Shown piece after piece: positions 190-33,140 of a DNA stretch of 64,000 nucleotides (positions are counted from its first letter, which is position 1; every line of letters starts with the position of its first letter). The position numbers and the translations under genes are program-made. The notes beneath the pieces were generated by a model that was not told the origin of the DNA, did not search any database, and saw nothing but the letters and a program-made list of their open reading frames with translations. The stretch is from an uncultured Acidimicrobiales bacterium (GTDB lineage: Bacteria > Actinomycetota > Acidimicrobiia > Acidimicrobiales > SZUA-35), in NCBI GenBank assembly GCA_938029215.1, contig CALHFG010000018.1, positions 4,632-68,631 of the forward strand, in the 5' to 3' direction.

Positions 190-1533
190 TCAGAAGGGTT
201 CTTCGTGGTGAATGGTGTGTCGTCTTCGCTGAGCGAGTGCCACTTGAGTCTTTCCCTTGTGGCAGGGGGTGCAGTAGAGACGCCCGTTTTCGGGGTTGGT
301 GTAGCCACCGTCTTGCCATTCGATTCGATGGTCGACCTGTTCACCGGGCCTATCGCAGCCGGGTGATCGGCAGGTCCGGTCTCGCAGGACCACCGCCATC
401 CGAGCAGCGCCGGTAAACAGGCGTTGGCTTCGCCCTAGCTCTACCTTTCGGGTTGCAGGGTCGAGAACGAATCGGGCGATTCGATGTTTGAGAGCAAGAC
501 GAAACGCTTCTCGGGGTAAGAGAGGTGTGCCCGTGGTGGTTTGGCATTGATATCCGGGACGGAAGACGTCGGTGGGGTCCGAAGCTGGGGCCCGTTCGGT
601 GGCGATCCACTCGGTGAACTTGTCGGCCTCCCGATCGAACGTCTCGACGTCCATGCAGATTGCAACCAGCGGCTCGGGAGACCTGCCGTCTTTGGGTGAA
701 GTATTGGCAAGCGTCGCGAGCAACCCGCAACCCCGTGCCATCCAGTACTTCTTGCCGCGGCGAACCACCGGCCGCAGGGTGTACTCAGAAAGATTGAGGT
801 GATCGTCCTCGGCTTTGATTTCGCTCCCGGATGTACCACCACCATCTTCAGCAGACTGGCGGGCCTGATCTACAAGTCGGAGGAGCCCCTGGCGGAGCAA
901 TTCGGCATCGCTGGTAAGCAGCAACCCCTTGATGGTGGTTGTCCCGTTCTTGTTATCGGTGAAACCGATCGTGAGATCTTTGTCTTCGGGGGCCTTGGCG
1001 TGAGGGTCGACATCCAAAGCTGCGAGGATCCACGCATCACACGCCAGGGCGAACTCGCTATAGGGCAGGTCTCGAGCCAGATCGACCAGCATCTTGTGGT
1101 CCCGTTCGAACAGTTCGGCTCGGGTACGAGTGCGGTTCCCAGGCAGGCACTGCCGAAACTTTTTGACGTGGGATTGGTTGAGCACACCTTCGGCAATGCC
1201 CTCCGCAATTGCATCAAATCGACGAGCGAGACGTCCCGTTGCCACGAGCCGATTACCTTCACTCTTTGCCATGTTGCACTCATGCGCCGCCCAGTTGGCA
1301 GGGTTGGAGTAGGGAGAGCCGGCAAGGCCGCCGTTGTCATCGTACTCGGCAATTTCACAACCGATAACTGCGGTTAGGTGCTCTCTTGCTTTGGTTAGAG
1401 CGGCGAGTCGTTCTGCACCAAGCGGGAGGGTTTCGGCGACATTTAGGAGTGCGATGATGTCTCCGATTTCCGCCATATATAAGTATAACAAGTGTTCGTA
1501 GATGTGCTCCTTAATGGCTCCAAAAGTTGCCAC
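190..1533 (-). CDS. HNH endonuclease-domain protein of the DUF222 / 13E12-repeat family (actinobacterial, multi-copy, mobile-like)
   Basis: 447-aa ORF with a C-terminal HNH motif CRSPGCDRPGEQVDHRIEWQDGGYTNPENGRLYCTPCH. The N-terminal region has the typical DUF222 architecture. Confidence 0.7.
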   Translation of the reverse strand: MATFGAIKEHIYEHLLYLYMAEIGDIIALLNVAETLPLGAERLAALTKAREHLTAVIGCEIAEYDDNGGLAGSPYSNPANWAAHECNMAKSEGNRLVATGRLARRFDAIAEGIAEGVLNQSHVKKFRQCLPGNRTRTRAELFERDHKMLVDLARDLPYSEFALACDAWILAALDVDPHAKAPEDKDLTIGFTDNKNGTTTIKGLLLTSDAELLRQGLLRLVDQARQSAEDGGGTSGSEIKAEDDHLNLSEYTLRPVVRRGKKYWMARGCGLLATLANTSPKDGRSPEPLVAICMDVETFDREADKFTEWIATERAPASDPTDVFRPGYQCQTTTGTPLLPREAFRLALKHRIARFVLDPATRKVELGRSQRLFTGAARMAVVLRDRTCRSPGCDRPGEQVDHRIEWQDGGYTNPENGRLYCTPCHKGKTQVALAQRRRHTIHHEEPF

Positions 1534-1722
1534 GATTCTCCCACATAATCCACGCTCCCCACAGCGGGCAAGCAGGTCAGCGGTGAGCGGTCAGCGGTGA
1601 CGGGTCTCCGGGGAGCGGTCCCCATCGGCCGGACAGGCGGTCGGACCTACAGTCGCCTCAGCCAGCATCCACAACTCGAAGGACAACTACTCGTGCTAAG
1701 TCCATCATCCCGAATCGCAATC

Positions 1723-2355
1723 ATGTTGACCTGCCTTATGTTGCTTGCCGCGTGCGGAAGTGGAGACGAACCTGCAGCAGATGCCGCCACTCCCAGCACG
1801 GAAGGCTCGACTACAACCCAGACACCGACAACCCAGACACCGACAACCCAGACGCCAACGACCGAAGCCCCTACGACAACCCAGCTGCCGACGACCGAGG
1901 CTCCGACCACGACAGCTCCTACTGATACCAGCGGCGAGGGTCCCAGCGAACCGGTCACGCAATCGGTGATGATCGGCGCGATGACGACCTTGCTGTCGCC
2001 CCAGTGCACCGTTCACCCCGAGTTCGGCACTGGGTCCGGACCGGCGTCGTTTGGTTCGGGTGCTCTGGGTCCCCTCGACGACTCGGACCCGCCGGTTGCA
2101 ATTACCGACGAAACGGTGCTGTGTTCTCGGGACGTCGAGAACGACACGGGCACCAGCTACTTTGCATTCGCAACCCAATCCGCTGGCGACGCTGCTGACC
2201 TGTCGGCCTGGTTCGCAACCAGTTCGTGCCGAGCGATGGCTGTAGTCGATTCATGGGTAATTGTCGCCGCGACCACCAGGGACGAACCAGCTGACAGCTC
2301 GTTTCTTGTCCTGACCGACTTGCTCGGTGGAGAGCTTACGCGGAACTGCGGTTAG
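1723..2355 (+). CDS. Secreted lipoprotein with a Thr/Pro-rich repeat linker, function unknown
   Basis: Internal Met of ORF 1597..2355 gives MLTCLMLLAACGSG, a lipobox signal. It is followed by a TQTPTTQTPTTQTPTTEAPTTTQLPTTEAPTTTAPT linker and a Cys-containing C-terminal domain. Confidence 0.5.
   Translation: MLTCLMLLAACGSGDEPAADAATPSTEGSTTTQTPTTQTPTTQTPTTEAPTTTQLPTTEAPTTTAPTDTSGEGPSEPVTQSVMIGAMTTLLSPQCTVHPEFGTGSGPASFGSGALGPLDDSDPPVAITDETVLCSRDVENDTGTSYFAFATQSAGDAADLSAWFATSSCRAMAVVDSWVIVAATTRDEPADSSFLVLTDLLGGELTRNCG
1813..1925 (+). repeat. Coding tandem repeat (15-bp unit acaacccagacaccg x3, then degenerate TTEAPTT units)
   Basis: Direct repetition is visible in the DNA at 1813-1857, continuing in degenerate form to about 1925. 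Confidence 0.6.
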
Positions 2356-2363: not shown

Positions 2364-2882
2364 CTACTTGGCGATGAGGTCGAGTACGTCCTGTTCCAGA
2401 CTGCCGTACCCGGTTACCTCGAAGGTCCCGTCGTCGTTCAAGAGCACGTAGGTGCGCTGGCGAGTGACGCCAAATCGCTCCCACAACCCGCTGGTTTCGT
2501 CGGGGACATGTTCGAGGCTTTCAACGCCGGTGCGCTCGATGAACTCAAGCATCGACTCTTGGTCGGCAAGCCCGGGAACTCCTATGAAAGTGACCTGGTC
2601 ACCGTATTGCTGCTGCACCTCCACGACCGTGGGGGCTTCAGAACGTCAAAATGGTCACCACGGAGCCCACAGCCAGAGCACCACATCTTGCCCCTCGAGC
2701 GAACCAAGATCGACCGAGTTTCCTGCGAGGGAAGTGAACTCCCCGTCGAATGCAGACGCTGGCGGAGCTGTTGCTGGGGCCTGAGCCGACTCCCCCGTAG
2801 TGGATTCGGCACCGCACGCAGCCAGGGTCAACGCCAGACCGAGCCCTAGGGCGGCTCGTCGAAAGCGGTTGGAGCGGATCAT
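2364..2882 (-). CDS. TlpA/ResA/DsbE-family thioredoxin-fold thiol:disulfide oxidoreductase lipoprotein in which both active-site Cys codons are in-frame TGA. Either a candidate UxxU (SelL-like diselenide) selenoprotein or a pseudogene.
   Basis: ORFs 2655..3197 and 2364..2624 share one reading frame. Reading through gives MIRSNRFRRAALGLGLALTLAACG (lipobox) ... LEGQDVVLWLWAPW-TGA-PF-TGA-RSEAPTVVEVQQQYGDQVTFIGVPG... The TGAs are at 2655-2657 and 2646-2648 on the minus strand, exactly at the two Cys positions of the WAxWCxxCRxE motif. There is no other frame disruption. Confidence 0.5.
2618..2635 (-). promoter_or_regulatory. Candidate bacterial SECIS-like hairpin (CCCCCAC-GGUC-GUGGAGG) starting 10 nt after the second in-frame UGA
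   Basis: A 7-bp stem with one mismatch and a GGUC apical loop, located 10 nt after UGA2 and 19 nt after UGA1 on the mRNA strand. Confidence 0.3.
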
Positions 2883-3041
2883 GCAGGAGTGAACCGGCGA
2901 TTCACCGGACCTATTCCGAAAAGTACGTACGTTCTTCGACGAACCGACTGGGTGCCGGTGTCTACTATCGCGGTGGTGGAGAGTTACGGAAAGTCCAGCA
3001 CGGGATTCAAGTCGTTGGGAACCAGCCTCGAGCCGGACCAT

Positions 3042-4025
3042 ATGGACCTCGGAACGAACCGGACACCGGTGGAGAGCTTCTTCGTCTGTAGTGGTGCGCC
3101 TGCCCCGCTTCCGAGCGATTGGAGCCTCACGCTCGACGGCGACGCCGCTGGAGAGGTGAGAACCCTGACGCTCGCCGACCTTGAGGCACTGCCGCAACAG
3201 TCGGTTGACTCATGGCTCGAATGCGCGGGGAATGGCCGAGCGATGTATGAGCTCGTTGGTGGCTACCCCCGCCCTGAGGAGGCCAACGACACCGCCTGGA
3301 CTCTGGGCAGCATGGGTATGGCGACATGGACTGGCCCGCGTCTGTCCGACGTGATCAACCTGGCCCGTCCAACCGGAGATCTCGCCTGGATAGGTCCGAC
3401 CGGAATGGATGTGGAGAACCTCGAGGGAGAGCCCGTCCGGATGAGCCTGCCGGCCACAAAGGCGCTCCATCCGGACACGCTGGTTGCGCTTGGAATGAAC
3501 GATGAGCCATTGGTGCCAGCCCATGGCGCACCGGCCCGTCTGCTGGTGCCCGGCTGGATTGGCGCCTACTCGGTGAAATGGATCGACCGCTTGGAACTCT
3601 CAACCACGTGGGTTAGCTCCTACCGATCCGACGAGTACTACGTGAGGCGAACCGCTGACGGAACCAAGCTCGGGCCAGCGACCACACATCCGCTCAAATC
3701 GACGGTGGCGTTGCCATTCGGTGCCACCATCGCCGCTGGCCAAACCGAGACCTTGGGCTATGCGCGCGGTGGCGACGGCCCCATCGTGGAGGTGGAGTTC
3801 TCGGTTGATGACGGGGATTGGATGCCGTGCACCCTGCTGCCGCTCGCAAGTCCGTGGGCGTGGACCCCGTTTCGTTTCGAGTGGACCGCCGAGCCGGGTG
3901 AGCGACAGGTACGGACACGAGCGGTCACCGCGTCGGGTGAGACGCAGCCCGACACCGTTCCCTATAACCCTCACACGATCTTGTGGAATGCGGTGACCCC
4001 GCACCGAGTTCTGGTGCGAGCGTAG
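3042..4025 (+). CDS. Sulfite oxidase-family molybdopterin oxidoreductase (Mo domain plus dimerisation domain), no signal peptide
   Basis: Contains the LECAGNGR Mo-ligand cysteine motif and FFVCSGAP at the start of the Mo domain. The ORF opens at 2889 (GTG), but ATG 3042 (MDLGTNRTPVESFF) avoids overlap with the divergent gene, so the start is uncertain. Confidence 0.7.
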   Translation: MDLGTNRTPVESFFVCSGAPAPLPSDWSLTLDGDAAGEVRTLTLADLEALPQQSVDSWLECAGNGRAMYELVGGYPRPEEANDTAWTLGSMGMATWTGPRLSDVINLARPTGDLAWIGPTGMDVENLEGEPVRMSLPATKALHPDTLVALGMNDEPLVPAHGAPARLLVPGWIGAYSVKWIDRLELSTTWVSSYRSDEYYVRRTADGTKLGPATTHPLKSTVALPFGATIAAGQTETLGYARGGDGPIVEVEFSVDDGDWMPCTLLPLASPWAWTPFRFEWTAEPGERQVRTRAVTASGETQPDTVPYNPHTILWNAVTPHRVLVRA

Positions 4026-4066
4026 AACCTTCCTGTAAGCAGCATCCTCGATCTACGCTGGCGAAC

Positions 4067-5302
4067 GTGCCCGACCTCGATCTCGATTTCGTCCGTTCCC
4101 AATTTCCTGCCTTTTCCGAAGCCAGTCTCGACGGTTGGGCCTTCTTTGAAAATGCTGGTGGGTCCTACGCCAGCCGGCAGACGATCCAGAGATTGCACGA
4201 CTTCTATGTGAAAACCAAAGTGCAGCCCTACGCGCCTTACCCGGCTGCCTCCGAGGGCGGCCATCAGATGGATCTGGCGCACGCCCGCCTCGCCGGCCTC
4301 ATGAACGTGGCCGAAGATGAGCTTCACATCGGACCATCCACCAGCCAGAACACTTATGTCCTGGCTCACGCATTCCGTGCCGGTTGGTCTGAGGGCGACG
4401 AGATCATCGTCACCAATCAAGATCACGAAGCCAACTCGGGTGTCTGGCGACGGCTGGAATCCACCGGCATCGTTGTTCGGGAATGGACCGTCGACCCCGA
4501 GACCGGCGAGCTCAACGTAGGTGACTTGGAAGACCTGCTGTCCGCCCGAACCAAGCTCGTAGCGTTTCCCCACTGTTCGAACATCGTGGCCCACATCAAT
4601 CCGGTCAGCGAAATCTGTTCGCTCGTTCACGACGCTGGCGCGGTCGCGGTGGTTGATGGCGTCTCGGCGGCCCCGCATGGACTGCCCGACGTTGAGGCAC
4701 TTGGTGCCGACATCTACCTGTTCTCCGCCTACAAGACCTACGGACCTCATCAGGGGATCATGGTTGTTCGCCGTGCCATGGGCGATGCCCTACCGAATCA
4801 GAGCCACTGGTTCAATGATGGCCAGCCCCATAAGCGACTGGTGCCGGCAGGCCCCGACCACGCCCAAGTTGCGGCTTGCAACGGAATCGCCGACTACGTG
4901 GAAGCGCTTCACGACCATCATTTCGACTCCATAGCTGATGGCGCTGAGCGAGGCCGTCGGGTCCATGATCTGATGCGGAACCATGAGATAGAGCTGCTCG
5001 GTCCACTGGTGCAAATGCTCGATGACCGAAGCGACGTTCGAGTCCTCGGCCCGACCGACCCTCATACGCGGGTGCCGACGGTTGCGTTTGCGACCGAACG
5101 AGACGCCGGCGATGTTGTCCGTTCGCTGTCGGAAAGCAAGGTGATGGCGAGCTCGGGCCACTTCTATGCCCGCCGACTGGTAGAGGCTCTCGGCCAGCCA
5201 GCCAACCCGGGTGTGGTTCGGCTGAGCTTCGTGCACTACACCTCCGCCAGCGAAGTGGCCCAGGCAATGGACGCTCTAACCGGCGCGCTACATACGTCCT
5301 AG
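4067..5302 (+). CDS. Class-V aminotransferase-fold PLP enzyme of the SufS/CsdA (cysteine desulfurase) family lacking the catalytic Cys. Possibly a cysteine sulfinate desulfinase-like enzyme.
   Basis: Contains SAYKTYGP (the PLP-binding Lys region) and a C-terminus ASSGHFYARRL that aligns to SufS RTGHHCAMPL with Cys replaced by Tyr. The N-terminus VPDLDLDFVRSQFPAF resembles SufS starts. GTG 4067 is the chosen start; the ORF opens at 3983. Confidence 0.6.
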   Translation: MPDLDLDFVRSQFPAFSEASLDGWAFFENAGGSYASRQTIQRLHDFYVKTKVQPYAPYPAASEGGHQMDLAHARLAGLMNVAEDELHIGPSTSQNTYVLAHAFRAGWSEGDEIIVTNQDHEANSGVWRRLESTGIVVREWTVDPETGELNVGDLEDLLSARTKLVAFPHCSNIVAHINPVSEICSLVHDAGAVAVVDGVSAAPHGLPDVEALGADIYLFSAYKTYGPHQGIMVVRRAMGDALPNQSHWFNDGQPHKRLVPAGPDHAQVAACNGIADYVEALHDHHFDSIADGAERGRRVHDLMRNHEIELLGPLVQMLDDRSDVRVLGPTDPHTRVPTVAFATERDAGDVVRSLSESKVMASSGHFYARRLVEALGQPANPGVVRLSFVHYTSASEVAQAMDALTGALHTS

Positions 5303-5312: not shown

Positions 5313-6365
5313 ATGAACAACTCCAGCGTGACGGTATCGCCATGGATCGCGGCCCTTCCCAAAGTTGAACTTCACGTCCACTTGGAGGGGTCAATGTCGG
5401 TCGCGACCGTTGAAGAACTCACCCGCCGGCACGGGATCGACCCAACCCCGGTGTGGCCCGACGGCCTACCGGAGCGGTTCTCCTTCGACGGCTTCCCCGA
5501 CTTCGCCAACCAGTTCTTCTACGGCCTCTCGCTTCTGCGCACAGGGGACGACCTCGCCACGGTTGTTGAAGACCTCGCCGTCAGCCTGGCCTCGCAGAAT
5601 GTCCGATACGCCGAAGTAACCACGACCGCCTACACCCACTTTCTCGGGCGCGGCGATCGAGTCGGGATGTCGGCAACTGAATACCGCGATGCTTTGAACG
5701 CGGGGCGTCGTCGGGCCCGCGACCACGGCGTGGAGATGGGTTGGGTGATCGACATCCCCCGCGATCTCGAGATGCCCGACAGCACGGTCACCATCGACTA
5801 CCTCGAGAGTGGTCTAACACCCGATGGCCTCGTCGCTCTCGGACTAGGCGGATACGAGGTTGGCTTCCCCGCAGGTCCGTACGCCGATCACTTTGCACGA
5901 GCCCGTGCCGTTGGACTTCATTCGGTTCCTCACGCCGGAGAAACCGAAGGCGCTCATTCCGTGCGTTCGGCTGTTGAAGACCTAGGCGCCGAGCGGATCG
6001 GCCACGGAGTCCGCTGTCTTGAAGATCCCGAACTCGTCGCCACTCTGGTCGATCAGCAGATCATGATGGAGGTCTGTCCCACATCGAATGATCTCCTTCA
6101 GGTGATCGAGCGGATCGAAGACCACGCGTTACCCGCCATGATGGCGGCCGGATTGCGAGTGTGCCTGAACACCGATGACCCTGGGTGGTTCGCTACCAAC
6201 TTGAACACAGAACTGGCGATCTCCAGCGCTTCGCTCGGGGTCACCGAAAGCCAACATCTCGCAATGCAGCTCGATGCGGTGGAGGCGTCTTTTGCCGAAC
6301 CGGTCGTGAAAGCCGCGATCCGGTCAGAACTTGCCGACGTCAGGCCGACGGACTCCAGAAATTGA
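5313..6365 (+). CDS. add: Adenosine deaminase
   Basis: Carries the PKVELHVHLEGS metal-binding signature and overall ADA-like sequence. A SufS-like gene and a sulfite oxidase gene sit immediately upstream on the same strand. Confidence 0.85.
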   Translation: MNNSSVTVSPWIAALPKVELHVHLEGSMSVATVEELTRRHGIDPTPVWPDGLPERFSFDGFPDFANQFFYGLSLLRTGDDLATVVEDLAVSLASQNVRYAEVTTTAYTHFLGRGDRVGMSATEYRDALNAGRRRARDHGVEMGWVIDIPRDLEMPDSTVTIDYLESGLTPDGLVALGLGGYEVGFPAGPYADHFARARAVGLHSVPHAGETEGAHSVRSAVEDLGAERIGHGVRCLEDPELVATLVDQQIMMEVCPTSNDLLQVIERIEDHALPAMMAAGLRVCLNTDDPGWFATNLNTELAISSASLGVTESQHLAMQLDAVEASFAEPVVKAAIRSELADVRPTDSRN

Positions 6366-7349: not shown

Positions 7350-8108
7350 CTAGAGGCCACGTAGTACGAGCGGCACCCCTGCCATAACGAGCCCACCCGC
7401 GAGCAGCACCAGCACCGTTTGCGCTGAGAGCTTGCCTGCGCTGAGCGCACCAATACGTCCGCCAATGACGGCGCCGACGATGACGAAGGGTGCAAAGGAC
7501 CACCGCGGGTTGCCTGCCAAGGCATGGCCCACGGCCGCGGCAAGTCCAGAACTCGCTCCGATCAGCGTTGTGGTCGCAGCCGCTCGATGAGCCGACAACT
7601 GTTGCAGCCTGGCAATGAGCGGCACCGTCACAAGACCCGCTCCGACACCGAGCGCTCCTGACAGCACGCCGATCAACGCACCCGACCCGGTGAGCGCCAT
7701 CACCTTTGGTTCCTTGACCGCACCGTCGGATCGTCCCGGCGACGGACCAAAAACGACGAACACCGCTAGTGCGATAAGCAGAAAGCCGATGATCAGATCG
7801 AACGCTCGTTGCGGGATCCGACTAGCCAACCACGCAGCCGACAAAAACGACACCGGGATCGCTCCAATCACAAACCATCGAGCGGTTTGGCGATCGACCA
7901 TGCCCGAACGGTCATAGGTGTAGGCCCCGACCGCTTGGACAAACAGTGTCGTAATCACGCTGGTCCCGACGGCGGTCGCGCCACCTAGGTCGAAAAACAA
8001 CACCAGGCCCGACACCATAAGGAAGCCCCCACCGGCACCAATGATCGACCCGTAGACGCCAACCAAAAGGGCGAGGACAAAGAGCCCAGCGGCGGTTTCC
8101 ACGTTCAT
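7350..8108 (-). CDS. TauE/SafE (DUF81) family sulfite/sulfoacetate exporter-type membrane protein
   Basis: Gly-rich, ~8-TM protein with the internal duplication typical of the family (GSIIGAGGGFLMVSGLV ... GALGVGAGLVTVPLI). Confidence 0.75.
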   Translation of the reverse strand: MNVETAAGLFVLALLVGVYGSIIGAGGGFLMVSGLVLFFDLGGATAVGTSVITTLFVQAVGAYTYDRSGMVDRQTARWFVIGAIPVSFLSAAWLASRIPQRAFDLIIGFLLIALAVFVVFGPSPGRSDGAVKEPKVMALTGSGALIGVLSGALGVGAGLVTVPLIARLQQLSAHRAAATTTLIGASSGLAAAVGHALAGNPRWSFAPFVIVGAVIGGRIGALSAGKLSAQTVLVLLAGGLVMAGVPLVLRGL

Positions 8109-24535: not shown

Positions 24536-25783
24536 TTGACCACGACCGATACCCGATCGACCGATCGGCCGCAACGATCGGACCGACAGGTCATCGCGTA
24601 CCTCGCGTTCACGGGCATTCTGCTGGCCCTTGGTATCGATATTGCCCTCCCGGCATTCGACGAGATTCGGCCAGCGCTCGGACTGGCCGAAGGGTCGAAT
24701 CGCATTACCCAGGTCATCACCGTCTACTTCCTGGGCATGGGCCTTGGACAGTTGGTATGGGGCCCGGTTTCGGACCGGTTCGGCCGACAGCGGGCGATGC
24801 TCACTGGGGTCGGTCTCTATGTCGGGTGCGCTGTTGCTTCCGCACTCGCCCCGTCCTTCACCGTGCTCCTACTGGCTCGGTTCATCTGGGGACTCGGTGC
24901 AGCGGCGCCAACCGGCCTACGGCCAGCGATCGCACGCGATCTCTATCGCGGCGATCAGATGGCACGTGTCATGAGCATGGTTATGGCGATCTTCATGATC
25001 GGCCCCATTCTCGCTCCGTTGCTCGGTGAGGTGATCCTCAGCGTGGTGTCATGGCGGTACGTGTTTGTGTTCTGCGCTCTCGCTGGAGCCGGACAGATGG
25101 CCTGGACGGTCCAGTTTGGCGAAACCCTCCCGAAGGATCAGCGTCAGCCGTTGGAGTTCCGCACCACCGGCCGTGCGTTCGTTCGGGTCGTGACAACCCG
25201 ACAGACCATCGCCTACACCTTGGCCCTGGCGTTCGCCTATAGCGGGTTCTACGTCTACCTTGCCAGCACTCAACCGATCATGGACACCATCTACGGGCGG
25301 GCGAATCAGTTCGCGATCGTGTTCGGTGCATCGGGAATTCTCATGGCTGGAGCCTTCGTTCTGTCCAATCGCCTCTTCGCTCGAATCGGCACCGCCGCGA
25401 CCGTGAATGCGTCGGCGGTGGTCTTTATCGCACTGGCCACCGCTCAGCTCGCTCTCGTTCTGTCCGCGGGGGGTACACCATCGTTCTGGCCGTGGATCGC
25501 ACTGGTCACCGCAGCAAACCTGGTTGGCGCTCCATTAGGTCCTGCCGCATTCACTCTCGGCCTCGAACCAATGGGTGATTTGGCAGGCACCGCAGCCGGT
25601 GTGATGGGCTTTCTTTCCATGACGATCGCATCGGGCCTGTCCGCGATCGTGAACTCACAGATCGACCTCACCGTTACGCCAATGGCCCTCGGCTACGGCC
25701 TTTTCGGACTGCTGTCGCTGCTCGCCCTCATCCTTGCTCAGCGCCCTGGTCCAAAGGAACTGCGCAACACCGTCGACCCCTAG
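24536..25783 (+). CDS. MFS transporter, Bcr/CflA-like drug-resistance subfamily
   Basis: Contains VYFLGMGLGQLVWGPVSDRFGRQ (motif A region). 12 TM. Confidence 0.75.
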   Translation: MTTTDTRSTDRPQRSDRQVIAYLAFTGILLALGIDIALPAFDEIRPALGLAEGSNRITQVITVYFLGMGLGQLVWGPVSDRFGRQRAMLTGVGLYVGCAVASALAPSFTVLLLARFIWGLGAAAPTGLRPAIARDLYRGDQMARVMSMVMAIFMIGPILAPLLGEVILSVVSWRYVFVFCALAGAGQMAWTVQFGETLPKDQRQPLEFRTTGRAFVRVVTTRQTIAYTLALAFAYSGFYVYLASTQPIMDTIYGRANQFAIVFGASGILMAGAFVLSNRLFARIGTAATVNASAVVFIALATAQLALVLSAGGTPSFWPWIALVTAANLVGAPLGPAAFTLGLEPMGDLAGTAAGVMGFLSMTIASGLSAIVNSQIDLTVTPMALGYGLFGLLSLLALILAQRPGPKELRNTVDP

Positions 25784-28700
25784 GGTTCGTCGGACTCGGC
25801 ACGAGTCTTTGCCGCGGTCGATGCCAGAAGATCAATCGCCCGAGCCGCAAGCGGATCTTGCATCTCCAACGCCCCCGAAACTTTCTCGATCGCTTCAATC
25901 AATCGATCCAAATCACCGCTCGAGTGCGGTTTGGTTGCTTCGGCCGGGCCGCCAGAAGATGGCGCGACGCCGAATCCTTGCCCCATCGAGGTGCTGACAC
26001 CCTCGATTGCCGCTACCACCCTGGTGACGGGATCGCTGTCGCCGCCACCCAGTCGTTGCCGACGGTTGAACGTGTCCAAGATCTCATCCCAACGCACCCG
26101 TTGCTCATCGGTCATCCGGCCCCGGAGGTCTGCGAGTTTCAGCAGGTTCGCCTCGGCGGCGCCGGTCAGACTTTGACTCTCGGCGATGTAGTGGTCGTCT
26201 AGTAGTTGCTGGACTTCCTCCTCGGTCATCGCAGGAACAATCTTGGAGGCCAATCGGGCCATGTTGCGGTAGGAACCCTGGAGTAAGAAAGGCGGCTCGG
26301 TTCGGTAGGAATCTTCAGTTGCAGCCGACGCTATGTACTGTCGATTGACCGCCAACACCGTCTGCTGAGTGGTAATGAGGTGCCTCAACGCAGCGATCAT
26401 CTCGTTGATCTCCGCACTGCTGTATGAGCCGGCCAGTGTCGACTCTGGAAGAGGTTCGCCCGCAGCCGCACGAAGGAACGCATTGAAGTCTTCCGGTGCG
26501 CTACCTGCTAACGGCGCAAGAACAGGATTCGCGGTCAACGCATTCTCGAGATAGCTCCTGGCGAACACTTCGTCATTGCCGCCCACGACATCGCCAAGGT
26601 TGTAGGTGTCGGCTCGGTTGGCCAACATGTCGGGGATCTGGAAGCGTTCGCCGCTCTCGGTGTAAGGATTTCCCGCCATGATGACAGCGAAGCGTTTGCC
26701 CCGAAGGTCAAAAGTTCGACTCTCGCCGTTCCAGACACCCTCGATTCGCCGTTGCCCATCGGTCAGGGAAATGAACCGCTGCAGGAACTCCGGGTTTGTG
26801 TGCTGAATGTCATCGAGGTACAGAATGACGTTGGTGCCAACAGCAAACGACAGGTTGATCCGATCGATCTCGCGAGCTGCGGTGGCGCTGGGAGCCTGAC
26901 CCGGATCCAGCGACGTCACGTCGTGACCCAAACCAGGGCCCGAGACCTTTACCAACGCCATGCCCAGACGATCCGCCAGATACTCCACCAGCGTGGTCTT
27001 TCCATAGCCTGGCGGCGAGAGCAACATCAACAGCCCGGACCGAGCGCCGGTGCGATCTTCGACCGTGCCGATCTGGCGAGCCAGGTTGTCACCAATGAGC
27101 GGCAGGTACACCTTGTCGATCAGTTGGTTGCGAACAAAACCCTCCGGAACCGAGGGCTCGAGGTCGTCGATGCGCAGTCGTTTCCGGAGATCTTCCAGCG
27201 TGCTACGCCGGGCCTCTCCGAACCGCCGATGCGCAGGAACGACCCTGGCAACGTGGTCGGAGACCACGGCAAAGACGTCATCGACGCGCCCTTCAAGTGA
27301 CCCTCCCACAAGCGTGGGGTGCTGACCAATGAGGCCGGAGGCAACGAAACCTAGATCGGCGTCGTAGGTCCGTCGAGGAAGATCTGGCGTGAGCAGAGCA
27401 ACGGCAACTTCGTCAACGAATGGAAGCTCGTTGGGTTGCGCTGTTCTCTGCAGGAAGTCGGTGAGAACGACGCTTGCAGCTTCGGTATCGTCGCCGATGC
27501 GCTCGAGAAGCTCTGCGACCGCACGGTTCTTGCGCATCGACTGGGTCAGCCCAGCCGCGCCTGGAGTGGTAGCAAAGCCCAAACCCTTCGGGTGCGTGAG
27601 CTCGGACATGAGGTAGCGAGCCGCAGCTGCTGAGAGGTTGAAATCATCGCCGACCTCGACCGACAGCGCCGATGACACCGCTGCCGACACCGACAAGGCT
27701 TCGGCTGCTGTTCCTCGATCGATCCACTGCTGGCGTTTCGAGTCGTCGGCTGCGGCCCACGCCAGAATCGCCCGACCACGTTCGGCGCCACTGGTCACCA
27801 GCGGGCCAGCGGCCAGAAGAGCCGGGCCCGCGGCTTCAGCGATCTTGGCAGCGTCCACATCATGAACGCCACGGTCATATCCCTCGTCCAAACGGTTATC
27901 GACCTCGGACTGCATTATGGGCATGACCCGATCAGCGATCGTCTCGGTGGCGCCGGGCCCGGGTGCGGTGAAGAGCCGCTCCATCTGGTCGCGGTCGCTC
28001 ATGAGTCCCGCCATCACATCGAACGCCAGGAAGGTCGATCGGTACAGATCGGCGGTTTCGGAAGCAAAGGGCTGACTCCAGAGATCCTTCGCTCCGTCCA
28101 GTTCGTCTGAGTGCACCGGCAACCGCAGTTCGGTGCCTGTCAGGACTGCGTCTAGCTGATCTTCACTGGGCACGATGGTGAGTTCGCGGGAACGGCGATC
28201 CACGCTGAACCGATGTCGGCCCAGCTTTACCGCATCACCGTCATACAGGTCCTGTCGATCGCGAAGGCTACGGGCCGCGCCATCCCGGGCAGCTCCCAAA
28301 CGAGATCCCAGTTCATCAGCCCGCACGGGCTCACCAAGTTCACGGAGGTCTTCGACCAGTTTCCGGATCCGACCCACCATTGGATCGGCAGCGAAGAACC
28401 CGTTGATTTCGTCGGCAGAGCCCAACTGGGACGCCCGTTGAATAACTCGATCGAGGGTCCGGGTCGCAGCAGAAACCAGCCGTTCACTCCGTTGCTGCCG
28501 GTCATCGACGAGTTGTTGACGCTTTCCGCTCAGCGCCTCGGACACCTGATCGCGGCGCGATGCCAGTTCGTCAAGTTGTGCGTCGGTGCGTGGTCCGGCG
28601 GTTTCCAGCTGTTCCAACTGCAGCAGCAAACGAGCAAGCGCCTCATCACACTCTTCGGGAGTTCCTGCCCGACCAACCGCGGTGGCGATCGACTGTCCGA

Positions 28701-30813
28701 ACAGACCCAGTTCAGTGGCGAAGGCGGCACCTGTCTCGGACTCAATGAGCTCAGTGCGTCTCCCCTCTACACCGGCCCGAACCCGGTTCAGTTCGGCAAG
28801 CACACCGCTGACTTGCTCGAGCACATTGGTTCGGACGCGAGGATCATCGACAACGAGATCACTTACGGTTCCAGCGACCACGTCCATTGATCCCGCCACC
28901 GCGTCGACCTGTTCGAGCAGGTCGTTGGCCGTTACGGACGAGTCGGCTGTGGGAATCTGTGCTTCGATCGCAACCAGGCGATCGTGGTAGGGAGAAAAGG
29001 CGCCCTCACTGGCGAGGTGAGCCGCGGCCGTCTGCGCAAGAGCGTTGTAAGAACCCTCGGCGTCTTCGATCAGTTCATCCACCCGGTCGGTGTCGATCTG
29101 GCGTCGCTCGCGAACCGTGTGCAGATGACCGATCTCGGTGCGAACGGCGGCAAGGCCGTCGATAAAGGCCTCGGTTGTGCGAGGTGGGCTTATACGGAGG
29201 TCTTCGAGAACTCGCGATACCGAGTCTTCCGCTTCAGCCAGAGCCGAGCCCGCCGCACTCTGGATCTCCAGCATGCGCTCAAACTCGTCGATGACCTGCT
29301 CGGCCGCAAGACGAATGTTCTTAGCTGGGTCGGCCAGATCGCCTACTTCGGTGTCACTGGACCAGTGGTGAGCATCCACGAAGCGGCCGGCCGAGGTGAG
29401 CAGGTCGCCGTACACCTCCGAACTTGGCTCGACTGCTTCGACCAGGCGAGTGAGCGCCAACGCGTCGGCGATTCCTCGAACCAGGGCTGCGTTACCAATT
29501 CGATCCAGTTCGCTGGTCGAACGCGGTTGTGCCTCGTACCACTCGACGGTCGAGAAGGGGGTTGACCAAATTTGGATTGGATGAATTCTTGTCGGTTCGG
29601 CCTCTTCGCGGAACACCACCATGGTCCCGTCCTCGAAGAAGGTGTGGCCGTGACAGGTGATTGGGGCAGTAACTTCCTGACGCACAACGTTGTAGGGCAT
29701 CAAGATGCTCACACCGGTCTCGCGCTCATGGAACACATACAACACGTCTTCACCATTAGGTGAACGCTGGACTTCGAGCAGCTCCATGTTGGCCGGATCG
29801 AGATCAAAGGTGCGGACCTCACCGGTCTTCAAATACACCCCGGAGGGAAAGATGATCCCTTGACCGTCTGGCAACTGGCGGAAGGCTTGTCCTAGATCGT
29901 CGAGCCGAACCGCGGAGTGGGTTAGCAGGTTGATCACGTAGTAGCGATGGTGCAGTTCGCCGTAGGGCAAGACGTCGAGAATGATGAAGTCGCCGCCCGC
30001 CTTGGCCCAGCTGATCTGGCAATCCGCCAGAGATTGATCAGCATGCTCCATCGGGTCAGAGAGCAGTTCGGTGCCCTCTCCCCCGTCGTCAAACAGAATC
30101 TGCAGAGTGCCCTGGAGGGGGTTAATCACAATCCGGTCATCGATCGCCACGTGCGTGGCGCCCACGTGGTCAGCGCGGGTGGTCATCGTCCATTCGGCGT
30201 CGTGGTGTGCGGGAAACTTGTGGTCCCGCTCCCCTCGGGCGTCGAGATAGCGAAGCGTCTTGTTGACCTCAATCTGCCACCGCAACACGCGAATGTCGTT
30301 CTTGGCGCTACCGGTGCGAAACACAGCCAGGAGACGGTCCTGACGGCGATACAGCTGTTGGAGTTGGCTCTCCTTGAAATAGGTGTGAAGTTCGCCGAAA
30401 TCGCGATGAAACTGGTCGTCGTCGAGGGCGGAACCGGTGAGACCTTCAGGGTTCGGATTGAGGATGACGGTCCGCGGGTCGCTGGTGTCACGCTCGTAGT
30501 GATGCACCGCGAACACGTCTTCGCTCCGGATCTCGCTCTTGATCCCTGCTGCAACGTTGTATGCGAAGACCATCTGGTCACCGACCGTGGCGACATCTCG
30601 AGGGACGGCGTTGGCCTCGGTGCGGACCCGCTCGGTCCCCAACAGCTCGAGCTGAGAGGCACCGAAGGTTTCGAGGCGTCGCTCGTTCAGCGCATTTGCT
30701 CGGTCGGCCAAGTCCGCAGCCGCGGCTTCAAGCCGCCCACGCAACAGGTCATAGGTCGATTGTGAGACCGCTTGGTTCTCAGACACTGTTCGGTTGCCTT
30801 TGCTCGTTCTCAA
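25780..30813 (-). CDS. Giant (1677-aa) uncharacterised protein with a single AAA+ (AAA_5/MoxR-like) ATPase module in its C-terminal third and long predicted coiled-coil/helical regions
   Basis: Walker A LLSPPGYGKTT at about 26990-27012, Walker B ILYLDDIQ and a sensor-1-like AVIMAGNP. The N-terminal ~1250 aa has no motif I recognise. It starts at TTG 30813 (SD GGAGGG 12 nt upstream), or alternatively GTG 30789. It lies 212 nt downstream of flotillin on the same strand. Confidence 0.6.
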   Translation of the reverse strand: MRTSKGNRTVSENQAVSQSTYDLLRGRLEAAAADLADRANALNERRLETFGASQLELLGTERVRTEANAVPRDVATVGDQMVFAYNVAAGIKSEIRSEDVFAVHHYERDTSDPRTVILNPNPEGLTGSALDDDQFHRDFGELHTYFKESQLQQLYRRQDRLLAVFRTGSAKNDIRVLRWQIEVNKTLRYLDARGERDHKFPAHHDAEWTMTTRADHVGATHVAIDDRIVINPLQGTLQILFDDGGEGTELLSDPMEHADQSLADCQISWAKAGGDFIILDVLPYGELHHRYYVINLLTHSAVRLDDLGQAFRQLPDGQGIIFPSGVYLKTGEVRTFDLDPANMELLEVQRSPNGEDVLYVFHERETGVSILMPYNVVRQEVTAPITCHGHTFFEDGTMVVFREEAEPTRIHPIQIWSTPFSTVEWYEAQPRSTSELDRIGNAALVRGIADALALTRLVEAVEPSSEVYGDLLTSAGRFVDAHHWSSDTEVGDLADPAKNIRLAAEQVIDEFERMLEIQSAAGSALAEAEDSVSRVLEDLRISPPRTTEAFIDGLAAVRTEIGHLHTVRERRQIDTDRVDELIEDAEGSYNALAQTAAAHLASEGAFSPYHDRLVAIEAQIPTADSSVTANDLLEQVDAVAGSMDVVAGTVSDLVVDDPRVRTNVLEQVSGVLAELNRVRAGVEGRRTELIESETGAAFATELGLFGQSIATAVGRAGTPEECDEALARLLLQLEQLETAGPRTDAQLDELASRRDQVSEALSGKRQQLVDDRQQRSERLVSAATRTLDRVIQRASQLGSADEINGFFAADPMVGRIRKLVEDLRELGEPVRADELGSRLGAARDGAARSLRDRQDLYDGDAVKLGRHRFSVDRRSRELTIVPSEDQLDAVLTGTELRLPVHSDELDGAKDLWSQPFASETADLYRSTFLAFDVMAGLMSDRDQMERLFTAPGPGATETIADRVMPIMQSEVDNRLDEGYDRGVHDVDAAKIAEAAGPALLAAGPLVTSGAERGRAILAWAAADDSKRQQWIDRGTAAEALSVSAAVSSALSVEVGDDFNLSAAAARYLMSELTHPKGLGFATTPGAAGLTQSMRKNRAVAELLERIGDDTEAASVVLTDFLQRTAQPNELPFVDEVAVALLTPDLPRRTYDADLGFVASGLIGQHPTLVGGSLEGRVDDVFAVVSDHVARVVPAHRRFGEARRSTLEDLRKRLRIDDLEPSVPEGFVRNQLIDKVYLPLIGDNLARQIGTVEDRTGARSGLLMLLSPPGYGKTTLVEYLADRLGMALVKVSGPGLGHDVTSLDPGQAPSATAAREIDRINLSFAVGTNVILYLDDIQHTNPEFLQRFISLTDGQRRIEGVWNGESRTFDLRGKRFAVIMAGNPYTESGERFQIPDMLANRADTYNLGDVVGGNDEVFARSYLENALTANPVLAPLAGSAPEDFNAFLRAAAGEPLPESTLAGSYSSAEINEMIAALRHLITTQQTVLAVNRQYIASAATEDSYRTEPPFLLQGSYRNMARLASKIVPAMTEEEVQQLLDDHYIAESQSLTGAAEANLLKLADLRGRMTDEQRVRWDEILDTFNRRQRLGGGDSDPVTRVVAAIEGVSTSMGQGFGVAPSSGGPAEATKPHSSGDLDRLIEAIEKVSGALEMQDPLAARAIDLLASTAAKTRAESDEP

Positions 30814-32975: not shown

Positions 32976-33140
32976 TCCGGTTGTTTCCTTTCAGAAGAAA
33001 CGTTGGTAGTAAATCGGCTGTGTTCAGGGAGTACTTAGCCAACGGACGGCGAGGCCGATCCGAGGGACCCTGGCGAGAACATTTTGTTGTTTTGGGCGAG
33101 TTGAGGCGAGATCAGTGATTGACCTCATCGGTGAAAGTCG

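What the first reader, a model, noticed from the sequence alone, without database searches (positions are those of the whole stretch)
2364..2882. Thioredoxin-fold (TlpA/DsbE-type) lipoprotein with TGA at both active-site Cys positions: a candidate UxxU diselenide selenoprotein
What the sequence shows. The two ORFs 2655..3197 and 2364..2624 on the minus strand are in the same reading frame. They are separated only by two TGA codons 9 nt apart. Reading through gives a canonical lipoprotein: MIRSNRFRRAALGLGLALTLAACG..., then ...LEGQDVVLWLWAPW-[TGA]-P-F-[TGA]-RSEAPTVVEV..., then ...FIGVPG...YVLLNDDGT.

Motif placement. This is the WAxW-C-x-x-C-RxE redox motif of TlpA/ResA/CcmG-family thiol:disulfide oxidoreductases. 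The two stops fall exactly where the two catalytic cysteines should be, and there is no other frame disruption.

Why selenocysteine is plausible. Two independent nonsense mutations hitting precisely both catalytic codons would be an unlikely way to make a pseudogene. Recoding both as Sec would instead give a UxxU motif. A diselenide UxxU thioredoxin-fold protein (SelL) has been described in aquatic animals, with homologs reported in marine bacterial metagenomes. A bacterial, lipoprotein-anchored TlpA-type UxxU protein would be a notable find.
Basis: partly seen in the sequence, partly recalled or inferred. Interest (0 to 1): 0.9.

Follow-up and report, generated by a model that had tools for sequence, protein, structure and literature searches.

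The report
Double-selenocysteine (UxxU) DsbE/DsbF-like surface lipoprotein
This is very probably a real gene for a cell-surface redox protein in which both active-site cysteines are replaced by selenocysteine; it belongs to a sizeable group in marine actinobacteria that public annotation cuts into two "hypothetical" fragments, and it is a new variant of a known kind of selenoprotein rather than a new kind.

Summary
A 172-codon minus-strand gene (2882→2364) encodes a lipoprotein with a thioredoxin-fold domain. The only interruptions are two in-frame TGA codons, at the two catalytic positions (WAPW-U-PF-U-R).

It is not a pseudogene or a sequencing error:
- An independent assembly carries the same two TGAs.
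- Eleven further distinct relatives are TGA/TGA, and those with a complete domain form one clade.
- More than 40 relatives are TGA/TGY. Mycobacterium-type homologues (DsbE/DsbF, best PDB matches) are Cys/Cys.
- The reading frame downstream of the second TGA is under purifying selection (dN/dS 0.17–0.54).
- TGA is an ordinary stop in 16 of 46 genes in the window.

A hairpin with a GGUC loop follows in every Sec form. It shows compensatory changes at synonymous sites and meets all four bacterial SECIS criteria for both UGAs (26 and 17 nt spacing).

New here: every UxxU member has lost the near-universal cis-proline of the thioredoxin fold. It carries Arg or His there instead, the arrangement found in peroxiredoxins.

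Not testable here: Sec machinery in the same genome, and selenium incorporation.

UxxU is already known in SelL-like "Prx-like" proteins, and UxxC in TlpA-like proteins. Verdict: new variant of a known kind.

The parts
2364..2882 (-). Complete coding sequence of the selenoprotein: 172 codons, ATG 2882 to stop TAG 2366-2364.
   Evidence: for the sequence and frame. Pfam Redoxin and AhpC-TSA pass their cut-offs; best PDB matches are Mtb DsbF 3IOS (1.1e-22) and DsbE/MPT53 1LU4 (5.2e-19).
2814..2882 (-). Lipoprotein signal peptide, residues 1-23: a positively charged n-region (R3, R6, R8, R9), a hydrophobic core, and the lipobox L-A-A-C with Cys23 at 2814-2816.
   Evidence: Read directly from the translation. 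Relatives L002, L023, L026, L091, L092 and L096 have comparable lipobox-like signals...AATAC...TAAAC...LVAAC...VLSAC...ITTAC...VAAAC. No signal-peptide predictor was run.
2655..2657 (-). First in-frame TGA (codon 76), at the N-terminal active-site position. Read as selenocysteine.
   Evidence: This position is TGA in all 52 distinct Sec-form sequences aligned in A2 and in L090-L096. It is TGC/TGT in the Mycobacterium-type homologues and in L003.
2646..2648 (-). Second in-frame TGA (codon 79), at the C-terminal active-site position. Read as selenocysteine.
   Evidence: TGA in 12 distinct sequences: the window (L090 is nearly identical), L001, the L018 group, L024, L026, L027, L028, L070, L091, L092, L094 and L096. 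TGT/TGC in more than 40 UxxC relatives. The seven UxxU sequences included in the tree form one clade.
2615..2636 (-). Bacterial SECIS-type hairpin GCCCCCAC-GGUC-GUGG-A-GG-U-GC. The upper stem is 2621-2624 paired with 2629-2632, and the apical loop GGUC is 2625-2628. The loop starts 26 nt after UGA1 and 17 nt after UGA2.
   Evidence: free energy -10.7 kcal/mol; the upper stem is paired in 50 of 50 distinct sequences, with pair types UA/GC/CG and GC/AU/GU; covariation score 0.231 against 0.130 in shuffles (0 of 500 reach it) and at most 0.10 in slid controls; meets the published bSECIS criteria. The motif is absent from the Cys-form homologues.
2454..2456 (-). Codon for Arg143, at the position of the conserved cis-proline of the thioredoxin fold (N-terminus of beta-strand 3).
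   Evidence: aligned to the Pro of FGVTQQPAYAF in Mtb DsbF; this position is Pro in 42 of 44 UxxC and 10 of 10 CxxC relatives, and Arg or His in all UxxU sequences; the same holds in further loci and in the C-terminal fragments; a weak hhalign places it on the catalytic Arg of the window's own peroxiredoxin.

Best explanation
The gene encodes a selenoprotein. It is a membrane-anchored, extracytoplasmic lipoprotein whose thioredoxin-fold domain belongs to the actinobacterial DsbE/DsbF branch of the TlpA-like (Redoxin) family, and both residues of the CxxC redox motif are selenocysteine (U76-P-F-U79).

Decoding. Both UGA codons are recoded by a single SECIS hairpin that lies inside the coding sequence. 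This hairpin is what forces the conserved peptide EAPTVVEV. Its GGUC apical loop is the presumed SelB binding site. The ribosome meets UGA1 with the loop 26 nt ahead, and three codons later meets UGA2 with the loop 17 nt ahead.

Chemistry. The mature protein would cycle between a diselenol and an intramolecular diselenide at the N-terminus of helix alpha-1.

History. In the UxxU clade the second Sec arose once from a UxxC ancestor and has been kept. It always comes with replacement of the fold's cis-proline by Arg or His next to the active site. This argues that the chemistry has shifted away from plain DsbE/F-type protein thiol-disulfide exchange.

Shown here: the gene structure, the family, conservation of both TGAs, the hairpin and its covariation, purifying selection, and the Pro-to-Arg/His association.

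Inferred: Sec rather than another residue at the UGAs, one hairpin serving both codons, diselenide formation, export and lipidation, and the substrate.
For: 1. Both TGAs sit on the catalytic Cys positions of homologues with solved structures.

2. There is a graded series: Cys/Cys, TGA/Cys (more than 40 distinct sequences) and TGA/TGA (12 distinct sequences). The seven UxxU sequences with a complete domain form one clade nested among UxxC forms.

3. An independent ENA assembly (L090) has the same two TGAs, with 2 differences in 650 nt.

4. The roughly 84 codons after UGA2 are open in every lineage. dN/dS is 0.17-0.54 at dS of about 0.7-1.9.

5. The hairpin's upper stem is paired in 50 of 50 distinct sequences, with compensatory changes at a synonymous third position and a coupled Thr/Val to Ala/Ala amino-acid switch. 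Covariation is 0.231 against 0.130 in shuffles (0 of 500) and at most 0.10 in slid controls.

6. The hairpin meets all four published bSECIS criteria: a 4-nt loop, G at loop positions 1-2, an upper stem of at least 4 bp, spacing of 26 and 17 nt (allowed range 16-37), and -10.7 kcal/mol (limit -7.5).

7. TGA terminates 16 of 46 predicted genes in the window, so the genetic code is standard.

8. The relatives that carry an organism name are Acidimicrobiales or unclassified Actinomycetota MAGs. A preprint reports selA, selB, selC and selD in all 84 complete genomes of Actinomarina, a genus of the same class.

9. The cis-Pro position is Arg or His in all UxxU members, against Pro in 52 of 54 others.
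Against: - No selA, selB, selC or selD gene, and no tRNA-Sec, was found in the 64-kb window or in any fetched flank. Their presence in this genome is unverified.
- There is no experimental evidence of selenium incorporation.
- One hairpin serving two UGAs 9 nt apart is an inference. From my own knowledge, in E. coli the UGA-to-SECIS spacing is rather strict, so two insertions from one element may be inefficient.
- One of the two scan patterns for the metagenome search (R[SA]EAP[TA]V[VA]E) encodes the hairpin itself. The absence of Cys forms among the metagenome hits is therefore partly ascertainment bias.
- Gene neighbourhood is not conserved and gives no functional clue.
- The copy in L001 appears to lack a signal peptide.
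Confidence: 0.78

Rival explanations
1. The gene is a decaying pseudogene. Two nonsense mutations happened to hit the two catalytic codons, and nothing full-length is made.
For: There are two in-frame stops, no Sec machinery is visible in the window, and public gene callers split the gene into two short ORFs.
Against: - The same two TGAs are kept in 12 distinct sequences that differ by about one synonymous substitution per site, with no further stops or frameshifts.
- dN/dS downstream of the second TGA is 0.17-0.54.
- The first TGA is kept in more than 50 distinct sequences.
- A hairpin with covariation follows the motif.
Confidence: 0.02
2. One or both TGAs are sequencing or assembly errors, for example TGC misread as TGA.
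For: The window comes from a single assembly of unknown quality, and each TGA is one base away from a Cys codon.
Against: - An independent ENA assembly (L090) has both TGAs.
- So do NCBI MAGs, JGI contigs and Logan assemblies from other samples.
Confidence: 0.01
3. The UGAs are recoded through the hairpin, but one or both are read as cysteine rather than selenocysteine. This could happen through a SelB-dependent Cys-inserting tRNA (tRNA-ReC / SelC*), or under selenium limitation. The protein would then be UxxC, CxxU or CxxC.
For: A 2026 in-silico study of UxxU-type [NiFeSe] hydrogenases found tRNA-ReC-like genes in about 56% of UxxU-carrying genomes, against about 2.3% of other Sec-type genomes. 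It notes that either UGA might then be read as Cys. Nothing in the sequence distinguishes Sec from Cys insertion.
Against: A TGA read as Cys gives no advantage over TGC, which is one mutation away. Yet the second TGA is retained in every verified lineage of the clade, which argues for selection on what UGA delivers. No tRNA of any kind was found near the gene. The rest of the genome could not be searched.
Confidence: 0.08
4. Sec is inserted only at UGA1, where the family's hairpin spacing evolved. Translation then mostly terminates at UGA2, so the main product is a 78-residue lipopeptide.
For: UGA2 lies only 9 nt after UGA1. The hairpin is the same one that serves the single UGA of the UxxC forms. 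Bacterial Sec insertion is known to be inefficient (my own knowledge).
Against: The C-terminal two thirds of the thioredoxin fold lie after UGA2 and are under purifying selection in all UxxU lineages. The 17-nt spacing from UGA2 to the loop is within the published 16-37 nt range. A 78-residue fragment would not contain a fold.
Confidence: 0.03
5. Rival at the level of function: loss of the cis-proline turns the diselenol site into a metal-binding site (Cu, Hg or an Fe-S type centre). The protein would then be a metallochaperone or detoxifier rather than a redox enzyme.
For: - The Trx-fold atlas cites evidence that the conserved cis-proline prevents metal binding by the CxxC thiolates.
- Two clade members have His at the cis-Pro position.
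Against: Most members have Arg at that position, which is not a metal ligand. There is no conserved metal-related gene neighbourhood. The family's characterised relatives are oxidoreductases.
Confidence: 0.1

Closest known systems
Mycobacterium tuberculosis DsbF (Rv1677, PDB 3IOS) and DsbE/MPT53 (Rv2878c, PDB 1LU4)
   Same: These are the best matches among solved structures (E 1.1e-22 and 5.2e-19). They share the single TlpA-like thioredoxin domain, the WAPW-CxxC-x-x-EAP motif (CPTC in DsbF, CPFC in DsbE), an actinobacterial origin and an extracytoplasmic location. Both fold reduced hirudin oxidatively in vitro and do not reduce insulin.
   Different: They have Cys/Cys instead of Sec/Sec, no SECIS hairpin, and they keep the cis-proline (QP) where the window protein has Arg143. 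Sequence identity is only moderate (the tblastn matches to Mycobacterium-type homologues were 32-40%).
[quoted passage not shown]
   Same: Same family, same lipoprotein architecture, same hairpin at the same place, and the same first Sec. One GOS read, JCVI_READ_1091141091063 (...VVLWFWAPYUTTCMREAYRP), looks like a UxxC member of this family or a close relative. Published catalogues list such UxxC TlpA-like and Redoxin selenoproteins with one Sec.
   Different: They have one Sec only and keep the cis-proline in 42 of 44 cases. Whether the catalogue entries are exactly this family was not tested.
SelL (animals) and the bacterial 'Prx-like 2' / 'Prx-like thiol:disulfide oxidoreductase' UxxU forms
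   Same: They have a thioredoxin-fold domain with a UxxU motif. The two Sec are two residues apart and are served by a single SECIS element. A diselenide in SelL is reported in the title of Shchedrina et al. 2007, which is cited; the paper itself could not be read here.
   Different: They belong to a different family. The GOS sequences read ...HYFATQGUAGuT...RFGxLN... and resemble the N-terminal region of selenoprotein P. The window protein has no such Pfam hit at E of 0.01 or better and instead has strong homologues in sequenced actinobacteria. SelL uses a eukaryotic SECIS in the 3'-UTR (my own knowledge).
Peroxiredoxins (TxxC / TxxU)
   Same: The nucleophile sits at the C-terminal position of the CxxC-equivalent motif, and an Arg occupies the position of the Trx-fold cis-proline. 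The UxxU clade has Sec at that C-terminal position and Arg or His at the cis-Pro position. A weak hhalign against the window's own 1-Cys Prx superposes CPFC on TPVC and R143 on the Prx Arg.
   Different: The first motif position is Sec rather than Thr. The sequence is a TlpA/DsbE-type protein, not a Prx: the hhalign probability is about 1% and E is 0.05. By my own reading of the motif, the Prx PxxxT proline is not present. No peroxidase activity has been shown.

Membership tests
Bacterial selenoprotein (UGA recoded as Sec) | The in-frame UGA aligns with Cys in homologues. | tested here: met
   Both TGAs align with the CxxC cysteines of Mtb DsbF and DsbE and of other Cys-form homologues.
Bacterial selenoprotein (UGA recoded as Sec) | A bSECIS stem-loop lies downstream: loop of 3-9 nt, G in loop position 1 or 2, upper stem of 4-16 bp, 16-37 nt from the UGA to the loop, and MFE of -7.5 kcal/mol or lower. 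| tested here: met
   The loop is GGUC. There is a 4-bp upper stem plus 2+2 further pairs. The spacing is 26 nt from UGA1 and 17 nt from UGA2. The free energy is -10.7 kcal/mol. Covariation supports the stem. bSECISearch itself was not available.
Bacterial selenoprotein (UGA recoded as Sec) | The reading frame downstream of the UGA is conserved and under purifying selection. | tested here: met
   dN/dS is 0.17-0.54 for the roughly 84 codons after UGA2 in 21 pairs of UxxU sequences. The frame is open in all of them.
Bacterial selenoprotein (UGA recoded as Sec) | The genome encodes selA, selB, selC (tRNA-Sec) and selD. | not testable with these tools
   None are present in the window or in any fetched flank. 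The only support is at the level of the class, from the Actinomarina preprint.
Bacterial selenoprotein (UGA recoded as Sec) | Selenium is found in the protein. | not testable with these tools
   This needs 75Se labelling or mass spectrometry.
TlpA-like / Redoxin thiol:disulfide oxidoreductases (Pfam PF08534; cd02966) | The domain model is matched above its curated threshold. | tested here: met
   Redoxin scores 48 bits (cut-off 26.6), AhpC-TSA 40.9 (26) and Thioredoxin_8 36.3 (27). No NCBIfam equivalog passes: TlpA scores 47 bits against a cut-off of 230, and ResA 40.8 against 170.
TlpA-like / Redoxin thiol:disulfide oxidoreductases (Pfam PF08534; cd02966) | A CxxC-type redox motif at the N-terminus of helix alpha-1, preceded by W-x-x-W. 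| tested here: met
   The motif is WAPW-U-PF-U, aligned to WAPWCPTC of DsbF. The structural position is inferred from the alignment, not from a model.
TlpA-like / Redoxin thiol:disulfide oxidoreductases (Pfam PF08534; cd02966) | [quoted passage not shown] | tested here: not met
   Arg143 occupies this position. It is Arg or His in all UxxU members and Pro in 52 of 54 UxxC and CxxC relatives. The importance of this proline is described.
Actinobacterial DsbE/DsbF (Mtb Rv2878c / Rv1677) | They are the closest relatives by sequence, and the protein is extracytoplasmic. | tested here: met
   They are the top two PDB matches. The Mycobacterium homologues form the Cys branch of the tree. The signal peptide and lipobox are read from the sequence.
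Actinobacterial DsbE/DsbF (Mtb Rv2878c / Rv1677) | Oxidase activity (oxidative folding of hirudin) with a DsbD/CcdA-type membrane partner. | not testable with these tools
   The activity is known for the Mtb proteins. No DsbD/CcdA-like gene is adjacent in the window or in other loci.
SelL / 'Prx-like 2' UxxU selenoproteins | Homology to the SelL / SelP-N-like Prx-like 2 family (weak PF04592 similarity; motif ...GUxxU...RFGxL). | tested here: not met
   There is no PF04592 hit at E of 0.01 or better. The GOS Prx-like 2 UxxU sequences have an unrelated motif context. Only the UxxU spacing is shared.
Peroxiredoxins | A nucleophile at the C-terminal position of the motif, plus Arg at the cis-Pro position. 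| tested here: met
   The window protein has Sec79 and Arg143.
Peroxiredoxins | Family-level sequence membership (PxxxTxxC motif, Prx-type profile match) and peroxidase activity. | tested here: inconclusive
   The AhpC-TSA Pfam model is matched, but TlpA-like proteins generally match it too. hhalign against the window's own Prx gives E 0.05 and probability 1%. The first motif position is Sec rather than Thr. Activity cannot be tested here.

The most novel reading that the evidence does not exclude
The UxxU clade is not a DsbE/F-type protein oxidase with selenium added. It is a peroxiredoxin-like, selenium-based peroxidase that arose inside the TlpA/DsbE ('cytochrome maturation protein') lineage.

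Gain of Sec at the C-terminal motif position, together with replacement of the cis-proline by Arg or His, recreates the peroxiredoxin catalytic geometry. Sec79 would be the peroxidatic residue, Arg143 its activator, and Sec76 the resolving residue that forms the diselenide.

That would make this clade a living analogue of the thioredoxin-to-peroxiredoxin transition proposed by Copley and colleagues. It would also be a natural case of one bacterial SECIS serving two UGAs at 26 and 17 nt.
Probability: 0.25. Interest if true: 0.8.

Novelty: new variant of a known kind. Interest (0 to 1): 0.6.

Why it matters
1. Annotation. The gene and dozens of relatives are stored in public databases as two unrelated short "hypothetical proteins" of about 75 and 86 residues. 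A whole clade of double-Sec proteins in marine actinobacteria is therefore invisible to standard annotation. No NCBIfam model passes its cut-off for it.

2. Sec decoding. The family offers a clean natural system for asking how one bacterial SECIS hairpin can serve two UGA codons 9 nt apart. The same hairpin serves one UGA in the UxxC sister forms and two in the UxxU forms.

3. Enzyme evolution. The second Sec is strictly associated with loss of the cis-proline, a residue described as more conserved across the thioredoxin fold than the CxxC itself. The replacement is Arg or His, the residue arrangement of peroxiredoxins. This is a concrete, testable lead on how active-site chemistry changes within the fold and on what a natural diselenide is used for.

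4. Ecology. It adds to the evidence that marine Acidimicrobiia invest in selenium at the cell surface.

Tried and rejected
- tRNA and Rfam scans of the window found nothing: no tRNA-Sec and no SECIS family. Rfam has no general bacterial SECIS model, so this negative result says little.
- ARAGORN on 75 related loci found no tRNA-Sec.
- I looked for sel genes and for a second selenoprotein in the window by reading ORF translations, by Pfam/NCBIfam scans of 20 ORFs, and by a scan for TGA-bridged frames and GGUC hairpins. None was found.
- Synteny: the window's neighbours have no counterparts next to the gene in other loci. Neighbourhoods in L001, L023, L091, L092, L094, L095 and L096 differ. Context therefore gives no functional clue.
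- A longer structure pairing UGACC with GGUCA about 60 nt downstream appeared in single-sequence folds. It is not supported across the alignment and was dropped.
- The first word-indexed protein search found only one homologue. A profile search was needed.
The position of Arg143 relative to the Sec residues therefore rests on alignment only.
- The SelL paper (Shchedrina et al. 2007) is not held in the library.
- The AhpD/CMD-like gene near the L091 copy was checked as a possible second selenoprotein. It has Cys and no in-frame TGA.
- The promoter and terminator scan around the gene found nothing.
- Genome-wide reassignment of TGA was considered and rejected, because TGA ends 16 of 46 genes in the window.
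Full report
**Observation**

On the minus strand an ATG at 2882 opens a 172-codon frame that ends at TAG 2366-2364. The only interruptions are TGA at 2657-2655 (codon 76) and TGA at 2648-2646 (codon 79).

The product starts with a lipoprotein signal, MIRSNRFRRAALGLGLALTLAAC|G. It continues through ...GQDVVLWLWAPW-U-PF-U-RSEAPTVVEV... to ...YVLLNDDGTFEV...LIAK.

With Cys written at the two stops, the protein passes the Pfam thresholds for Redoxin (48 bits, cut-off 26.6) and AhpC-TSA (40.9, cut-off 26).

Its best matches among solved structures are:
- M. tuberculosis DsbF, 3IOS, E 1.1e-22;
- M. tuberculosis DsbE/MPT53, 1LU4, E 5.2e-19.

In those alignments WAPWCPFC lies on WAPWCPTC and WTPWCPFC. 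The one correction is that the gene starts at ATG 2882, not at the TTG at 3197 of the mechanical ORF.

**Not an error, and not a recoded genome**

A contig from an independent ENA assembly (L090, ERZ6864290) differs from the window at 2 of 650 aligned bases and has the same two TGAs.

In the window itself, 16 of 46 predicted genes end in TGA. These include genes whose products match full-length profiles, such as the adenosine deaminase that ends at 6363-6365. TGA is therefore an ordinary stop in this organism.

**What relatives have at the two positions**

A scan of one genome per species found:
- an Acidimicrobiales MAG with WAPW-TGA-PH-TGA (L001);
- another Acidimicrobiales MAG with TGA-PT-TGT (L002);
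- Acidimicrobiia, Mycobacterium, Mycolicibacterium and Segniliparus homologues with TGC/TGC.

A metagenome scan returned 72 loci. In all but one that could be read (L073 was not checked), the first position is TGA, and the second is TGA or TGY.

Following four short "hypothetical protein" fragments back to their contigs gave four more TGA/TGA genes: L091 (GCA_039028435.1), L092 (GCA_020629375.1), L094 and L096.

Twelve distinct sequences are TGA/TGA in total, and more than forty are TGA/TGY. In a neighbour-joining tree of the domain, the seven UxxU sequences with a complete domain form one clade nested among UxxC forms. The Cys/Cys mycobacterial proteins form a separate branch. The second Sec therefore arose once and has been kept.

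One caveat applies. One of the two scan patterns (R[SA]EAP[TA]V[VA]E) encodes the hairpin peptide. The lack of Cys forms among the metagenome hits is therefore partly ascertainment.

**The region after the second TGA is translated**

Among the seven complete UxxU sequences, the roughly 84 codons beyond the hairpin are open in every case. Pairwise dN/dS is 0.17-0.54, with dS between about 0.7 and 1.9. An untranslated tail would not stay open and constrained at that divergence.

**The SECIS element**

Directly after the motif, every Sec form has GAAGC-CCCYRC-GGUC-GYRGAGG. In the window this is G2636 to C2615, with the loop GGUC at 2628-2625.

Results on 50 distinct sequences:
- The four upper-stem pairs are formed in 50, 50, 50 and 49 of them.
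- One pair occurs as U-A (37), G-C (7) and C-G (6). It links the synonymous third position of a Pro codon to the third position of a Val/Ala codon.
- The next pair occurs as G-C (37), A-U (12) and G-U (1). It couples a Thr-to-Ala change to a Val-to-Ala change.
- The covariation score is 0.231, against 0.130 in shuffles (0 of 500 reach it) and at most 0.10 when the partners are slid.

The hairpin alone folds at -10.7 kcal/mol. The Cys-form homologues do not have the motif.

Measured against the published consensus, every criterion is met for both UGAs:

| Criterion | Published range | Observed |
|---|---|---|
| Apical loop | 3-9 nt | 4 nt (GGUC) |
| G in loop position 1 or 2 | required | GG |
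| Upper stem | 4-16 bp | 4 bp, plus 2+2 further pairs |
| UGA to loop | 16-37 nt | 26 nt (UGA1), 17 nt (UGA2) |
| Free energy | -7.5 kcal/mol or lower | -10.7 kcal/mol |

The hairpin sits at the same place in UxxC and UxxU forms. The simplest reading is that one element serves both codons. A recent in-silico study of UxxU hydrogenases suggested the same arrangement. This remains an inference.

**What could not be shown**

The only support is taxonomic:
- The relatives that carry an organism name are Acidimicrobiales or unclassified Actinomycetota MAGs.
- A preprint reports selA, selB, selC and selD in all 84 complete Actinomarina genomes, which belong to the same class.

Sec insertion rather than SECIS-dependent Cys insertion by a tRNA-ReC also cannot be decided from sequence.

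The thioredoxin fold has a cis-proline at the start of beta-strand 3. It contacts the CxxC motif and is described as more conserved across the fold than the CxxC itself.

In this family it is the P of ...TSQPAFVFINDDG, aligned to FGVTQQPAYAF of DsbF. At this position:
- 42 of 44 UxxC sequences and 10 of 10 CxxC sequences have Pro;
- every UxxU sequence has Arg or His (window R143 in TRQRTYVLLNDDG; QRVY, QHTY, RHRMY in others);
- so do almost all of about 30 C-terminal fragment clusters with the clade's signatures;
- the UxxC pair that is sister to the clade has Ser.

[quoted passage not shown] The UxxU clade has acquired exactly these two features while keeping the N-terminal Sec.

A profile comparison with the window's own 1-Cys peroxiredoxin (43188-43823, minus strand) is statistically weak (E 0.05). 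It nevertheless superposes CPFC on TPVC and R143 on the Arg of tvRsvfiid.

This points to a shift in chemistry. The alternatives are a Prx-like selenoperoxidase with a resolving Sec, a site that has become able to bind metal after losing the proline, or a diselenide-based thiol oxidase. I cannot decide among them.

**Comparison with what is known**

- UxxC selenoproteins of the TlpA-like/Redoxin type have been catalogued since the Sargasso Sea and GOS surveys. One GOS read (...VVLWFWAPYUTTCMREAYRP) looks like a UxxC member of this family or a close relative.
- UxxU is known in animal SelL, in the bacterial "Prx-like 2" or "Prx-like thiol:disulfide oxidoreductase" family, in a putative mercuric-reductase metal-binding protein, in FmdB-like proteins and in hydrogenases.
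- The GOS UxxU sequences (...HYFATQGUAGuT...) belong to a different family from this one. The window protein has no similarity to the SelP N-terminal Pfam model at E of 0.01 or better.
- Current catalogues list the TlpA-like and Redoxin entries with one Sec only.
- No paper in the searchable library describes a UxxU DsbE/DsbF-type protein.
- No NCBIfam model passes its cut-off for it.
- Public gene calls split it into two fragments of about 75 and 86 residues labelled hypothetical.

I therefore rate it a new variant of a known kind. It is a real selenoprotein of a familiar class, with a double-Sec motif and a correlated active-site change that appear not to have been described for this family.

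**Verdict**

My confidence is about 0.78 that both UGAs are recoded and the full-length protein is made. Pseudogene and error explanations are effectively excluded.

The remaining uncertainties are the Sec machinery in this genome, Sec versus Cys at each UGA, the efficiency of double insertion, and the substrate. Interest is moderate to high (0.6). The result is solid and testable and carries an unexpected structural correlate, but it lies within a known category.

Noticed in passing
window 2454-2456 (Arg143); L001, L018, L024, L026-L028, L091, L092, L094, L096: Every UxxU family member has Arg or His where the thioredoxin fold's conserved cis-proline should be. 52 of 54 UxxC and CxxC relatives keep Pro. 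This is the residue arrangement of peroxiredoxins.
   Followed up: yes
L023 and L042 (contig Ga0209187_1000096); L025 and L045 (contig ORXT01000238): The same contig carries a UxxU copy and a UxxC paralogue about 16 kb apart. Some genomes therefore keep both forms.
   Followed up: partly
window 2889-5302 (+), 7350-8108 (-): Several sulfur-related genes lie close to the selenoprotein gene. Diverging from it are a SorT/SoxC-like molybdenum sulfite dehydrogenase and then a cysteine-desulfurase-like class V aminotransferase (TIGR01976 family, 283 bits against a cut-off of 352). By eye, a TauE-like permease follows nearby; its NCBIfam hits are weak. A desulfurase of this type could act on selenocysteine, but the arrangement is not conserved at other loci.
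   Followed up: partly
window 1597-2355 (+): A convergent neighbour encodes a lipoprotein of unknown function with a Thr/Pro-rich linker and several Cys in its mature part. Its only family hit is weak (E 4e-4): the N-terminal part of the NCBIfam model 'Rcas_1661 family thioredoxin-like (seleno)lipoprotein'. It is present next to the gene in L090 too, but not at other loci.
   Followed up: partly
window 39420-43823 (-), 50436-52115 (-): By eye, a cluster of sulfur and redox genes: a metallo-beta-lactamase plus rhodanese fusion that resembles a persulfide dioxygenase (Pfam Lactamase_B and Rhodanese), two SulP-type permeases, and a 1-Cys peroxiredoxin (FTPVCTTE, TVRSVFIID).
   Followed up: no
window 190-1533 (-): A DUF222/HNH endonuclease gene lies just downstream of the selenoprotein gene. 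L028 has a weak relative near its own copy (tblastn E 1.4e-7).
   Followed up: no
window 25780-30813 (-): A very large ORF (1677 aa) with DUF3686 (Pfam description 'ATPase involved in DNA repair', E 1.5e-153), DUF7902 and an AAA_5 domain. The two ORFs beside it (30951-32258 and 32340-33038) have no Pfam match.
   Followed up: no
window 47514-59625: By eye, an unusual density of universal-stress-protein-like genes (at least six), PAS-domain histidine kinases, a LuxR-type response regulator and a long hibernation-factor-like protein (S30AE domains). This looks like a stress or dormancy regulon.
   Followed up: no
L001 9851-10390: The UxxU copy in Acidimicrobiales MAG-142 has no recognisable signal peptide or lipobox upstream of the domain, unlike the other members. 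It could be a cytoplasmic variant, a mis-assembled 5' end or a different start.
   Followed up: partly
P0027-P0076, P0084-P0090 (protein database entries): Dozens of database proteins of 71-100 residues, unnamed or labelled hypothetical protein and mostly 85-86 residues long, are C-terminal halves of this family. Most begin at the GTG inside the 3' arm of the SECIS hairpin (M/V-EVQQQYGDQ...). This is a systematic annotation artefact.
   Followed up: yes
PMC2398784 supplementary file 3, part 32: In the GOS selenoprotein sequence file, one read with the motif WFWAPYUTTC, apparently of this TlpA/DsbE-like family, appears in a stretch otherwise made up of SelL-like 'Prx-like 2' sequences. The section heading it falls under was not checked.
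   Followed up: partly
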